Shown here: one piece after another, positions 1,779 to 3,663 of the stretch | How positions within the stretch are numbered: the stretch's first letter is position 1 | Layout of the letters: each line of letters starts with the position of its first letter | The notes under the pieces: generated by a model | Database searches by the model: none | Seen by the model: the letters and a program-made list of their open reading frames with translations, nothing else | Told to the model about the DNA's origin: nothing | Virus record (IMG/VR): IMGVR_UViG_2609459839_000002 | Direction: 5' to 3' (one strand) | DNA length: 4,727 bases | From: a virus | Taxonomy: Duplodnaviria > Heunggongvirae > Uroviricota > Caudoviricetes | Made by a program: the position numbers and the translations under genes

Positions 1779-1877
1779 CTATCAGGCACTGCGTGAAGAA
1801 GAGAAAGCATAATCCAAATCTGAATAATTAAATTCAGCACTGTAAATAAAATTTAATCCTTAACCGGAGGAGTATCT

Positions 1878-2090
1878 ATGTTAAATACACAAAAAAACAT
1901 TAACGTGGAAAAATATAACGAGTGGGTGAAAAATTTTTCTGAGCAGATTTTTAAAATTACTGGCGACGAGAATGCGGCAAAAAGTGAATTAGAACCATGG
2001 ACATCTGAAGGAGCCAACCCAAATTATTGCTGGTGGGATGTTGATCCAGTTGATGCTGCAAATGAAGCCATGAGTTACCACAACGATTAA
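1878..2090 (+). CDS. Hypothetical small protein, 70 aa, first gene of the AT-rich island
   Basis: ORF in track. GGAGG at 1866-1870 sits 7 nt before ATG 1878. AT-rich codon usage unlike the upstream genes. Contains a NPNYCWWD motif. No family recognised. Confidence 0.5.
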   Translation: MLNTQKNINVEKYNEWVKNFSEQIFKITGDENAAKSELEPWTSEGANPNYCWWDVDPVDAANEAMSYHND

Positions 2091-2098
2091 TGTCAGGA

Positions 2099-2118
2099 GG
2101 CCGCCCGAAAGGGCGACT
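2099..2118. terminator. GC-rich stem-loop with GAAA tetraloop between convergent genes; candidate (weak) intrinsic terminator
   Basis: Stem CGCCC (2102-2106), loop GAAA, stem GGGCG (2111-2115), extendable with one mismatch. Lies between the stops of the 1878..2090 (+) and 2129..2683 (-) genes. No strong U-tract on either strand. Confidence 0.3.
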
Positions 2119-2128
2119 GTTCCGCTGT

Positions 2129-2683
2129 TCAATTATCTAAAATTGTGCTAAATCTTTTTATTACCATTAAGAACGTTATAACAGTGATAAAAAAGGATGT
2201 ATAGGCTAAAAAGCTAACAATATATGCAGGTGCGCGAAAATACCATTTCATTAAATCCACTGCATTGTCAGGCAGGAAATATATTATCACTGAAAATATA
2301 ACCAATACTATTGAAGTTAATATTGCATAAGCGACGTTGTGGCATAACTGCTCATATATGGTTTTGTTAGTGTTTAATGATATCAATTTGTCTCGGGATT
2401 TGTTTCCTTCAATTATGTCTGATATCTTAGTGATGGTTTTTTGTTTTTGTTCATAAATCATTATTACTGCACTCATTAATAGTGCTGTTGTAATAGCCCC
2501 GAAGTTAACGAAGACGGAAGCAATTGCCGGTTTCATTATTCCGTATGTCCGGCACAGAACGAAAGAAAGAGATAACGGAACAATAAAATGTACGATAATG
2601 TCGCTCATCAACATTGTTCCACGCTGATCTGACATTGTTTTGTAGTGTTTTATTATTACACCCAGCACATTTATTTTATTCAT
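2129..2683 (-). CDS. Four-helix integral membrane protein, 184 aa; candidate membrane effector of a two-gene RexB-like module
   Basis: ORF in track. Four hydrophobic segments (about residues 28-47, 52-75, 111-135, 150-175). ATG overlaps the upstream gene's TGA (ATGA at 2680-2683). SD-like GGGGTGA lies upstream on the minus strand. Very AT-rich. Confidence 0.6.
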   Translation of the reverse strand: MNKINVLGVIIKHYKTMSDQRGTMLMSDIIVHFIVPLSLSFVLCRTYGIMKPAIASVFVNFGAITTALLMSAVIMIYEQKQKTITKISDIIEGNKSRDKLISLNTNKTIYEQLCHNVAYAILTSIVLVIFSVIIYFLPDNAVDLMKWYFRAPAYIVSFLAYTSFFITVITFLMVIKRFSTILDN

Positions 2684-3612
2684 ATAATCACCCCTTTGTT
2701 TCCGCTATGCAGTTCTAACAATATATCATTAGAAAGGTTTTTTATCGTGTCATGAAGTGCTGTTAGATCAGGTATGCCTGTTAATGGGTCGATTTTTAAA
2801 TCATTATCATCTAACTCTGCGGAAATTCCTTTTTTTAGTATGGTCTCATAATTGAAAACGACAGTCCGACTGCCGAGTTGTAAGCTTACTTTTATTGCAT
2901 CACATTTATCTTCAATAATCTCAATGATGTTTCCTATATTCTTGTTTCTTAAATCTCTGAAACTTCCGAACACGCCATCGTTTGCTTTTATTATTAAGTC
3001 TGTCTTGATGTTTGTTTTGTTTTGACCAAAGGAATCAGCAATGTCTTTTGGTGCTTTATATCCTTGAGCCTTAATTTGTTTTAATTCGGAATTGAGAATA
3101 TATTGAGGGATTTTCTTATGATGTAATGGATTGATTCTTGCTTCGAGTTGAAATTTGTTTTTTAGATATTCAGTGATAGAATCAGAAAGGACACCTCGAG
3201 CAGAAATATTATCGCAAGAGTGGAATGCAATAATTCCTTCTTTAAGGGCGTCTGGTAGGTATATTAAAATATAACGTTCTTTGAGTGTTACATCATAAGC
3301 AGTTGTCGTATAGTGGATTTTTTTGAGTTTTACATCTTTTATTTCACTGCTTTCTCCATATTTCCCAACTTTTATATAACCATATATAATTTTCTTTGAG
3401 TTATCAAAGTGAAGTTTAGCGTGTTGTTCCAGAGATATTTTAGTTTTGGATACGCCAAACTCGATGGGGGTGTTTTTATATAGAGTAAAATAATCAACAA
3501 AAAGTTCATATGCCGTTTTTTTATTACTTAAACCCAATTCATTAAGTTTTTTGCTGGCTCGACTGCCTTTATGGGTCAATACGCGGAATGAATAGAAATT
3601 AACGCTGTGCAT
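2680..3612 (-). CDS. Soluble 310-aa protein of unknown function; candidate sensor/activator (RexA-like position) of a two-gene module
   Basis: ORF in track. AAGGA lies 7 nt upstream of the ATG on the minus strand. Lys/Ile/Asn-rich, no transmembrane segment. Translationally coupled to the downstream membrane protein gene. The N-terminus (NFYSFR...KGSRASKKL) faintly resembles my recollection of lambda RexA (GFYATYRSKNKGKDKRSINL); unverified. Confidence 0.6.
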   Translation of the reverse strand: MHSVNFYSFRVLTHKGSRASKKLNELGLSNKKTAYELFVDYFTLYKNTPIEFGVSKTKISLEQHAKLHFDNSKKIIYGYIKVGKYGESSEIKDVKLKKIHYTTTAYDVTLKERYILIYLPDALKEGIIAFHSCDNISARGVLSDSITEYLKNKFQLEARINPLHHKKIPQYILNSELKQIKAQGYKAPKDIADSFGQNKTNIKTDLIIKANDGVFGSFRDLRNKNIGNIIEIIEDKCDAIKVSLQLGSRTVVFNYETILKKGISAELDDNDLKIDPLTGIPDLTALHDTIKNLSNDILLELHSGNKGVII

Positions 3613-3636
3613 GAAAAGTCCTTTTGAACATATAGG

Positions 3637-3663
3637 AGTATACTAGAACATAAATAGATGCAA
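3637..3663 (-). promoter_or_regulatory. Candidate sigma70 promoter for the minus-strand operon (TTGCAT, 15-nt spacer, TATACT)
   Basis: On the minus strand, TTGCAT corresponds to + 3658-3663 and TATACT to + 3637-3642. Spacer is short (15 nt). Motif reading only. Confidence 0.2.

What the first reader, a model, noticed from the sequence alone, without database searches (positions are those of the whole stretch)
1780..3650. Sharp compositional island (about 30% GC) inside a roughly 55% GC prophage backbone
Sample counts give about 27% GC at 2401-2460 against about 60% at 301-360. The switch occurs right after the stop of the 1494..1778 gene and ends near the start of the 310-aa gene. The island holds three genes (a 70-aa + strand gene and the convergent two-gene operon) with AT-rich codon usage (ATA, AAA, AAT and TTT frequent) foreign to the flanking phage genes. 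This points to a horizontally acquired cargo cassette from a low-GC donor.
Basis: seen in the sequence. Interest (0 to 1): 0.5.

Follow-up and report, generated by a model that had tools for sequence, protein, structure and literature searches.

The report
Rex-like phage-defence cassette in prophage
The AT-rich island is real and is swappable prophage cargo; its main content is an unannotated two-gene operon (a protein with the fold of phage lambda RexA plus a four-helix membrane protein) that most likely works like lambda's RexAB abortive-infection system, but no function has been tested.

Summary
Window 1780-3650 has 34% GC against 53% for 1-1779, with strongly AT-shifted codon use. By homology the island runs to 3851.

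It consists of two independent modules set between conserved junction sequences in a lambdoid (Qin/Rac-like) E. coli prophage. The site lies between the replication genes and the hokD/sok locus.
- Module A (1871-2092) is a 70-aa acidic early gene.
- Module B (2116-3851, minus strand) is a translationally coupled operon of a 310-aa basic protein and a 184-aa four-transmembrane protein.

The family has 579 representatives at E<=1e-3. In 8 of 8 distant loci examined, the large gene is followed by a homologue of the membrane protein. These include a Pseudomonas Pf inovirus.

The cassette occurs in 37 of 5426 complete E. coli genomes, and other cassettes occupy the same slot.

Best reading: a new, sequence-divergent family of RexAB-type abortive-infection systems. 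Its function is inferred only. A specific "low-GC donor" is not supported.

The parts
1..1778 (+). Prophage early-right backbone. It contains the 3' part of the replisome-organizer gene (to 741), DUF977 (782-1204), DUF4406 (1201-1497) and DUF4752 (1494-1778). GC is 0.53.
   Evidence: Pfam hits. RefSeq annotation of the 99.9% identical locus L001. GC values.
1818..1870 (+). Conserved left junction piece. It has a small hairpin (CTGAAT-N6-ATTCAG, 1820-1837) and an RBS. Many lambdoid prophages carry it directly followed by the 2093-2115 hairpin.
   Evidence: blastn to L002, L003, L017 and L020 at 92-96% identity. Hits H103-H108. Fold.
1878..2090 (+). Module A (insert 1871-2092). A 70-aa acidic protein (pI 4.3), phrog_4659, function unknown. 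It is co-directional with the early lytic operon and is inherited independently of the operon.
   Evidence: Absent with junction 1870|2093 in L002 and L003. Found among small early genes of Stx2a phages and ArgO145.
2093..2115 (.). GC-rich hairpin between the convergent genes, terminator-like on both strands. It is a conserved junction piece.
   Evidence: Fold: -16.3 kcal/mol on the minus strand, z -2.2. 96-100% conserved in L002, L020 and L022.
2129..2683 (-). Gene B. A 184-aa basic (pI 9.4) inner-membrane protein with four transmembrane helices, proposed as the RexB-like effector. Its start codon overlaps the stop of gene A (ATGA).
   Evidence: AF2 model with pLDDT 85 and four long helices. 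Hydropathy shows 4 TM segments. phrog_15250. No Pfam, NCBIfam or PADLOC hit. Homologues follow every remote A gene examined. ATGA overlap.
2680..3612 (-). Gene A. A 310-aa basic (pI 9.2) cytoplasmic protein with a RexA/RdgC/IML3-type two-domain fold, proposed as the RexA-like sensor.
3733..3760 (-). Promoter-like site (TTTACA-16-TATTAT), about 120 nt upstream of gene A and inside the cassette. It is a candidate own promoter for expression in the lysogen.
   Evidence: Consensus scan. The number of such sites is not above chance, so this is only a candidate.
3852..3947 (+). Right junction. This is the 5' half of the hokD/sok regulatory leader, with the Rfam sok model starting at 3869. It is truncated by IS150.
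   Evidence: Rfam RF01794 scores 122 bits on the intact locus L001 but only 82.6 bits here, with the 3' half forced through IS150. Homology with L002 and L020 resumes at 3823-3852.
3948..4727 (+). Left part of an IS3-family element, recognised from memory as IS150. OrfA (173 aa, 3995-4516) carries HTH_28 and HTH_Tnp_1 domains. It is not part of the island.
   Evidence: Homology with the uninterrupted locus H1 ends at 3949. Pfam hits. The IS150 name rests on my recollection of the InsJ sequence and inverted repeat and was not tested against a reference.

Best explanation
**What the island is.** It is the variable accessory slot of a lambdoid prophage, bracketed by conserved junction sequences (1818-1870 plus 2093-2115 on the left, the hok/sok leader on the right).

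**What it holds.** Its main cargo is a self-contained operon, transcribed leftward against the early lytic operon.
- Gene A (310 aa) is a basic cytoplasmic protein with the split-globular plus dimerisation-domain fold of lambda RexA and RdgC.
- Gene B (184 aa) is a four-TM inner-membrane protein that is translationally coupled to A.

**Proposed mechanism, by analogy with lambda RexAB and P. putida RexABpp.**
1. In the lysogen both proteins are made at low level.
2. When another phage infects, A senses a phage DNA or protein-DNA intermediate.
3. A then activates B.
4. B permeabilises or depolarises the membrane, which arrests the cell and aborts the infection.

**Shown here.**
- The composition shift, the modular boundaries and the presence/absence and swap polymorphism.
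- The operon structure.
- The four TM helices of B.
- The RexA-type fold of a moderately confident model of A.
- Strict co-inheritance of the A and B families across very distant hosts.

**Inferred only.** Expression in the lysogen, DNA binding, the A-B interaction, membrane damage and any anti-phage effect.
For: **Fold of A.**
- The domain order of the model matches RexA. The model has a beta-rich region at 1-162, a middle domain at 170-267 and a C-terminal helix at 283-301. RexA has 1-139, 143-234 and 248-279.
- hhalign of the superfamily profile against a RexA-family profile gives a co-linear match: our 122-250 against RexA 99-237. The score is 31.9 and P is 1e-3. It aligns the conserved INPL motif with RexA IEPL just before the hinge. 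Only 1 of 150 block-shuffled controls reached that score.
- Foldseek on viral models gives five uncharacterised phage proteins, then RdgC-like proteins at E 0.01-0.03.

**Properties of A and B.**
- A is basic, with pI 9.2 and a net charge of +9 in the N-terminal domain.
- B has four TM helices, like RexB.
- Gene order is A then B, with an ATGA overlap.

**Conservation of the pair.** In all 8 remote A loci with enough flank, the next gene matches the B-family HMM at E 2e-39 to 9e-7.

**Context.**
- In E. coli the cassette is always in prophages.
- In Pf phage PfAC16 it lies next to the repressor, in the accessory region. In other Pf phages the accessory genome carries Retron, Kiwa, Gabija, Avs and similar systems.
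- Neighbours in the remote loci include GmrSD_C, HSDR_N, SNIPE/T5orf172 and a large N6_N4 methyltransferase.
Against: - There is no significant sequence match to RexA or RexB by Pfam, PADLOC, NCBIfam, or HMM searches of PDB sequences.
- The hhalign probability is only 21%.
- B shows no detectable similarity to RexB, and a four-helix membrane protein is a generic architecture.
- Only the best of the five AF2 models is confident (pLDDT 76, against 54-62 for the others). Parts of the middle domain are below 50.
- The RexA/RdgC fold indicates DNA binding, not defence as such.
- Here the operon is not next to the immunity repressor, unlike rexAB.
- No experiment or publication on these proteins was found.
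Confidence: 0.55

Rival explanations
1. A membrane-anchored defence with the roles reversed, as in Kiwa or mycobacteriophage Butters gp30/gp31. The 4-TM protein would be the sensor or sequestering anchor. The RexA/RdgC-fold protein would be the effector that binds incoming phage DNA and blocks its replication or recombination, without membrane damage.
For: - The fold of A is shared with RdgC, an inhibitor of RecA function, and with the DNA-clamping IML3/CHL4 proteins.
- A is basic.
- PMC12894663 notes that in Butters the cytosolic RexA-like protein is the effector and the membrane protein sequesters it.
- Nothing in the sequence says which partner is the effector.
Against: - No PADLOC or Pfam hit to KwaA or KwaB/DUF4868.
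- Gene order is A then B as in rexAB. From memory, kwaA comes before kwaB in Kiwa.
- Four of the five characterised Rex-like systems use the membrane protein as the effector.
Confidence: 0.2
2. A prophage lifestyle or entry-exclusion function rather than abortive infection. Either A modulates the lysis-lysogeny switch, as lambda RexA does independently of RexB, or B blocks DNA entry at the membrane as a superinfection-exclusion protein.
For: - Lambda RexA binds DNA non-specifically and biases the switch toward lytic growth without RexB (PMC11077077).
- In PfAC16 the pair sits next to the phage repressor.
- Small prophage membrane proteins are often Sie proteins.
Against: - In E. coli the operon is far from the immunity region and moves between backbones with different repressors, RacR-type and LexA/CI-type. 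That argues against a switch-specific role.
- Homologous pairs also occur in non-prophage neighbourhoods next to restriction-type genes.
- Strict A-B co-inheritance argues for a joint function.
Confidence: 0.12
3. Selfish or neutral cargo. The pair could be an addiction-type toxin/antidote module, with the membrane protein as toxin. Alternatively it could simply be mosaic AT-rich phage DNA with no benefit to the host, the compositional island being ordinary lambdoid mosaicism.
For: - The cassette, the hairpin and the hok/sok leader co-diverge as one unit: 76% identity in Rac-like prophages and 86% in Citrobacter. The cassette therefore travels with a known type I toxin-antitoxin locus.
- AT-rich morons are common in lambdoid prophages.
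- The cassette is rare, at 0.7% of complete E. coli genomes.
Against: - Both proteins are full-length and conserved from 98% down to about 20% identity, with invariant motifs, across Enterobacterales, Halomonas, Pseudomonas Pf phage, a low-GC bacterium and an archaeal MAG. That indicates purifying selection on a function.
- The RexA fold has no precedent as an antitoxin.
Confidence: 0.08

Closest known systems
Phage lambda RexA/RexB exclusion system (PDB 8TWQ; Pfam PF15969 and, from memory, PF15968)
   Same: - Prophage-borne two-gene operon in the order cytoplasmic protein then 4-TM membrane protein.
- A has RexA as its best structural match, the same domain order and a basic pI.
- AT-rich relative to the phage.
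- Both families are narrow at the close level (33 and 36 clusters at 90% identity), mostly in Enterobacterales.
   Different: - No family-level sequence match. A is 310 aa against 279, and B is 184 aa against 144.
- It is located between the replication genes and hok, antisense to the early operon, not downstream of cI in the immunity region.
- The genes overlap (ATGA), whereas rexA and rexB are separated by 15 nt.
P. putida prophage P1 RexABpp (PP_5643/PP_5644) and the actinobacteriophage Rex-like pairs (Sbash gp30/31, CarolAnn gp44/43, Butters gp30/31)
   Different: - RexApp also gave HHpred 98% to RexA. Here hhalign gives only 21% (P 1e-3).
- Those systems have experimental defence data. 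This one has none.
- I could not compare sequences directly, because those proteins are not in the collections I could fetch.
RdgC / IML3-CHL4 (CENP-L/N) DNA-clamp fold
   Different: RdgC is a stand-alone housekeeping recombination modulator with no membrane partner. There was no Pfam hit of any kind for A at E<=1, so none to RdgC.
Kiwa (KwaA 4-TM + KwaB DUF4868)
   Same: A two-gene defence made of a roughly 190-aa 4-TM protein and a roughly 310-aa cytoplasmic DNA-binding protein. It is also carried by Pf phages.
   Different: - The gene order is opposite (from memory).
DUF6731 + 159-aa TM cassette at the same prophage slot (E. coli ATCC 43896 and ETEC strains)
   Same: Same position between the same flanks, same convergent orientation, same size classes (304 aa plus a small TM protein) and the same low GC.
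   Different: - No detectable sequence relation to A, B, RexA or RexB.
- It comes with an extra Q-like gene.

Membership tests
RexAB-type two-component abortive-infection systems (functional class) | Adjacent, co-directional genes: a cytoplasmic A protein followed by a small membrane B protein | tested here: met
   A is at 2680-3612 and B at 2129-2683 on the minus strand, with an ATGA overlap. The same arrangement is seen in all remote loci.
RexAB-type two-component abortive-infection systems (functional class) | The A protein has the RexA fold (split globular domain plus dimerisation domain) | tested here: met
   [not shown]
RexAB-type two-component abortive-infection systems (functional class) | The B protein is an inner-membrane protein with four TM helices | tested here: met
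   AF2 model with pLDDT 85 and four long helices. Hydropathy gives 4 segments, as for RexB.
RexAB-type two-component abortive-infection systems (functional class) | Carried by a temperate phage or prophage and expressed in the lysogen | tested here: inconclusive
   Prophage location is shown. Antisense orientation and a promoter-like site are compatible with lysogen expression, but expression was not measured.
RexAB-type two-component abortive-infection systems (functional class) | A dimerises and binds DNA; A activates B; membrane depolarisation; exclusion of other phages | not testable with these tools
   This needs biochemistry and phage challenge. The only supporting observation is that A is basic.
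RexA family proper (Pfam PF15969) and RexB family proper | Sequence match to the family profiles | tested here: not met
   - No Pfam hit at E<=1 for A or B, and none in 61 remote relatives.
- No PADLOC hit.
- Profile-profile comparison with RexA gives probability 21% and P 1e-3.
- B against RexB gives nothing.
Kiwa | KwaA and KwaB (DUF4868) profile matches | tested here: not met
   [not shown]
DUF6731 (PF20505) | Pfam profile match | tested here: not met
   No hit for A. The protein in the alternative cassette does hit at 2e-12. hhalign of A2 against it gives nothing.
Prophage accessory (moron/defence) hotspot cargo | Presence/absence and replacement by unrelated cassettes between conserved flanks in related prophages | tested here: met
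   - The cassette is in 37 of 5426 genomes.
- An alternative cassette lies between the same flanks.
- Other content appears in L020-L022 with the same junction pieces.
hok/sok type I toxin-antitoxin locus (right flank) | Rfam RF01794 match followed by a hok ORF | tested here: met
   The intact locus in L001 scores 122 bits and is followed by hokD. In the window only the 5' half (3869-3947) survives before the IS element.

The most novel reading that the evidence does not exclude
The 310-aa/184-aa pair would be the founding E. coli member of a large, so far unannotated family of Rex-like abortive-infection systems.
- **Size:** 579 representatives at 50% identity with E<=1e-3, and 116 with E<=1e-10.
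- **Spread:** lambdoid prophages, Pf inoviruses, marine gammaproteobacteria, low-GC bacteria and possibly archaea.
- **Consequence:** the number of known Rex-type systems, five described so far, would grow many-fold. It would also show that the RexA/RdgC clamp plus 4-TM effector design is an ancient, widespread immune module rather than a lambda curiosity.
Probability: 0.45. Interest if true: 0.7.

Novelty: new variant of a known kind. Interest (0 to 1): 0.55.

Why it matters
RexAB was the first abortive-infection system discovered, about 70 years ago. Its trigger and the way RexA activates RexB are still unknown, and only five Rex-like systems have been described (PMC12894663).

This family has the same fold and architecture, and it has deep, diverse alignments for both partners. 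That would allow:
- covariation analysis and modelling of the A-B complex;
- comparative mutagenesis;
- selection of escape mutants in well-studied coliphages.

It would also add a defence family that PADLOC-DB v2.0.0, Pfam and NCBIfam all miss. It marks the slot upstream of hok in lambdoid prophages as a place to look for further systems.

If the pair turns out not to be defensive, the finding is just an ordinary AT-rich moron in a mosaic prophage.

Tried and rejected
**Searches that found nothing.**
- PADLOC, Pfam, NCBIfam and PHROGs gave no functional hit for any of the three island proteins. Only function-unknown PHROG families matched.
- HMM searches of PDB sequences with the close (A1) and broad (A2) profiles gave nothing meaningful.
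- hhalign of A2 against single RexA or DUF6731 sequences, and of A1 against the RexA profile, gave nothing.
- B against RexB and against the 159-aa TM protein gave nothing.
- Foldseek of the B model on viral structures had no significant hit. The only notable hit was a 172-aa protein of Siphoviridae sp. ctylc9. That phage also holds the second-best match to A.
- The cassette is absent from 50,697 phage records at DNA level.
- Literature searches found nothing on DUF6731, on the RefSeq WP accessions of the cassette proteins, or on a hokD hotspot. The DefensePredictor supplements also had nothing.

- The search for related loci with the broad alignment failed because it had no conserved stretch.
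- With A1 on genomes it returned only one locus, in Citrobacter.
- Three viral-contig scans with remote members found nothing.
- A scan for DUF6731 relatives returned only sequences at 80% identity or above, too close to build a useful profile.

**Readings rejected.**
- A single three-gene cassette.
- A specific low-GC donor.
- Kiwa.
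Full report
**1. Observation**

A 200-nt sliding window shows GC of 0.49-0.62 over 1-1700 and 0.30-0.405 over 1701-3700. It recovers only partly, to 0.40-0.49, afterwards.

Per-feature GC:
- Four left-hand genes: 0.47-0.55.
- 70-aa gene: 0.37.
- 184-aa gene: 0.33.
- 310-aa gene: 0.33, with GC3 of 0.28.

Interval 1780-3650 is 0.341 against 0.526 for 1-1779, a z of about -16. ATA is 53 against 3.6 per thousand, and GCG is 2 against 33.

**2. Where the window comes from and how the island is built**

The window is 99.9% identical over 1-3949 to a chromosomal prophage of E. 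coli E275a. The gene order there is: immunity region, YdaT, replisome organizer, DUF977, DUF4406, DUF4752, the three island genes, hokD, DUF968, RusA, Q. It is therefore a Qin/Rac-type lambdoid prophage.

From 3948 the window is an IS3-family element that I recognise from memory as IS150. It has an HTH transposase orfA at 3995-4516. The Rfam sok/hok-leader model RF01794 scores 122 bits on the intact locus. Here it scores 82.6 bits, because only its 5' half (3869-3947) is left.

Pairwise blastn against relatives shows that the island is modular:
- Window 1818-1870 is a conserved junction piece.
- The hairpin 2093-2115 is a second conserved junction piece.
- The 70-aa gene (1871-2092) is an insert between them. 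It is absent, with junction 1870|2093, from L002 and L003.
- The two-gene operon with its upstream region is 2116-3851.
- Homology with cassette-free or differently loaded prophages resumes at 3823-3852, in the hok leader.

**3. Mobility**

The operon is found in 42 of 5426 complete E. coli genomes. Of these, 37 have at least 80% coverage. 27 records are at 95-100% identity and 15 are at about 76%. All copies are chromosomal and single-copy.

It sits in different backbones but always just upstream of a hok gene:
- after DUF4752;
- after ead/Ea22;
- after DUF977 in Rac-like prophages.

The hairpin, the operon and the hok leader align as one block. Identity is 76% in the Rac-like prophages and 86% in Citrobacter braakii.

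Other strains with the same flanks carry different content. ATCC 43896 and several other strains hold a Q-like gene, a 159-aa TM protein and a 304-aa DUF6731 protein in the same convergent layout, at GC 0.35-0.37. G749, an O157:H7 strain and RM9387 hold only small plus-strand phage genes.

So the idea of horizontally exchanged cargo is supported. A particular low-GC donor is not. In every remote locus the homologous pair is 6-17 GC points below its neighbourhood. Examples are 0.42 against 0.575 in a Pseudomonas Pf phage and 0.36 against 0.53 in Halomonas.

**4. What the operon encodes**

Neither protein matches Pfam, NCBIfam or PADLOC at E<=1. PHROGs only places them in function-unknown families 15676 and 15250.

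*Gene A (310 aa, pI 9.2).*
- It has 33 close clusters, mostly in Enterobacterales, down to 46% identity.
- A full HMMER scan of 1.84 billion representatives finds 579 relatives at E<=1e-3 and 116 at E<=1e-10. Nearly all are 300-320 aa.
- None of 61 sampled relatives has a Pfam domain.
- An AlphaFold2 model from the family alignment has pLDDT 76 and pTM 0.68. The other four models are poorer.
- That is the set of fold relatives the RexA structure paper lists, apart from RdgC and Cas2 (PMC11077077).
- Foldseek on viral models finds five uncharacterised phage proteins and then RdgC-like proteins weakly.
- The model's domain order matches RexA. The model has a beta-rich N-domain to about 162, a middle beta/alpha domain at 170-267 and a C-terminal helix at 283-301. 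RexA has 1-139, 143-234 and 248-279.

*Sequence-level link to RexA.*
- I built a RexA-family profile.
- hhalign against the broad A profile gives one co-linear alignment: A 122-250 against RexA 99-237. The score is 31.9, P is 1e-3 and the probability is 21%.
- It pairs the conserved INPL motif of A with the IEPL motif of RexA, just before the G140 hinge.
- Reversed profiles score 16-17. Block-shuffled profiles score 19.9 +/- 4.3, and 1 of 150 reaches the real score.
- This is weak but consistent support for distant homology.

*Gene B (184 aa, pI 9.4).*
- The model is confident (pLDDT 85) and has four long helices. Hydropathy gives four TM segments, like RexB.
- It has no detectable sequence similarity to RexB. 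The same was true for the validated P. putida RexBpp.
- The B start codon overlaps the A stop codon (ATGA), which implies translational coupling.

**5. The pair is a conserved unit**

I looked up seven remote A relatives. In each case the next gene, between 16 nt of overlap and 80 nt downstream, encodes a 168-197-aa protein with four or five hydrophobic segments. The remote relatives come from:
- Halomonas;
- several metagenomes;
- a low-GC bacterium;
- a Methanofastidiosa MAG.

These partner proteins match the B-family HMM at E 2e-39 to 9e-7. An eighth contig was too short to test.

The Pseudomonas inovirus PfAC16 carries the pair as ORF1/ORF2 next to its repressor. A survey of Pf phages found PADLOC-recognised systems (Retron, Kiwa, ShosTA, Gabija, IetAS, Avs) in the accessory genomes of other Pf phages. 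It left ORF1/ORF2 unassigned (PMC11878078).

Neighbours in the remote loci include GmrSD_C, HSDR_N, SNIPE/T5orf172 and a 707-aa N6_N4 methyltransferase.

**6. Mechanism**

The best-supported reading is a RexAB-type abortive-infection or growth-arrest system. A would be a dimeric DNA-binding sensor and B the membrane effector, expressed from the cassette's own promoter in the lysogen. A candidate promoter lies at 3733-3760, though such sites are not above chance in this region.

Rivals:
- A Kiwa-like or Butters-like division of labour in which A is the effector (0.2).
- A lifestyle or superinfection-exclusion role (0.12).
- Selfish or neutral cargo, possibly linked to the adjacent hok/sok locus (0.08).

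**7. Membership and novelty**

The pair meets the architectural and fold criteria of the RexAB class. It fails the sequence-family criteria (PF15969 and RexB). It should therefore be described as Rex-like, not as rexAB.

It is not Kiwa and not DUF6731. No paper or defence database available here mentions it. I rate it a new variant of a known kind.

The compositional island on its own is ordinary for lambdoid prophages. The interest lies in the unannotated, widespread Rex-like family it contains.

Noticed in passing
window 3869-4024 (junction at 3948); L001 9869-10024: An IS3-family element, IS150 by my recollection, is inserted in the hokD/sok regulatory leader about 70 nt upstream of where hokD starts in uninterrupted relatives. 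The Rfam sok model scores 82.6 bits here against 122 bits intact, and its 3' half is forced through IS sequence. None of the 5426 complete E. coli genomes has this junction: the best hits stop at 3949.
   Followed up: partly
window 1818-1870 and 2093-2115; also L002, L003, L017, L020, L022: Two short conserved pieces recur at 92-100% identity at the left edge of the variable region in many otherwise different lambdoid prophages. One is an AT-rich hairpin plus RBS, and the other is a GC-rich hairpin. The hok leader marks the right edge. They look like the homology arms through which cassettes are swapped.
   Followed up: partly
window 1878-2090: A 70-aa acidic protein (pI 4.3, phrog_4659) is an independent insert between the two junction pieces. 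At about 90% identity it also occurs among small early genes of Stx2a-converting phages, ArgO145 and vB_EcoM-Ro157c2YLVW. Its function is unknown. Being small, acidic and early-expressed, it is the kind of gene that sometimes turns out to be an anti-defence factor, which is speculation.
   Followed up: partly
L002 5883-7822 (E. coli ATCC 43896 and ETEC strains H22-H30): The same slot carries an alternative low-GC cassette with the same convergent layout. It has a 174-aa antiterminator-Q-like gene, a 159-aa TM protein and a 304-aa DUF6731 protein. It has no sequence link to the A/B pair or to RexAB.
   Followed up: partly
L019 412-1883 (Pseudomonas phage PfAC16 ORF1/ORF2): A filamentous Pf prophage carries a distant homologue of the whole pair (311 aa plus 179 aa, overlapping by 4 nt) beside its repressor, at GC 0.42 against 0.575. 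The paper describing this phage did not recognise it as a defence system.
   Followed up: yes
L016 3001-4543 (MAG GCA_012797855.1, Candidatus Methanofastidiosa): A homologous pair (318 aa plus 168 aa, with B-HMM E 9e-17) lies on a 5.7-kb contig of an archaeal MAG next to a 707-aa N6_N4 methyltransferase. It could be genuine archaeal carriage or a binning contaminant.
   Followed up: no
L017/L018 4968-6802; L005 5694-7518: The hairpin, the operon and the hok leader align as one continuous block at 76% identity (Rac-like E. coli prophages) and 86% (Citrobacter braakii). The cassette and the hok/sok locus therefore seem to have diverged together rather than being joined repeatedly.
   Followed up: partly
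L001 12871-14375: In the uninterrupted relative, the same prophage carries a Ser/Thr kinase plus PP2C phosphatase pair just after Q, followed by an IS2. This looks like another accessory two-gene module.
   Followed up: no
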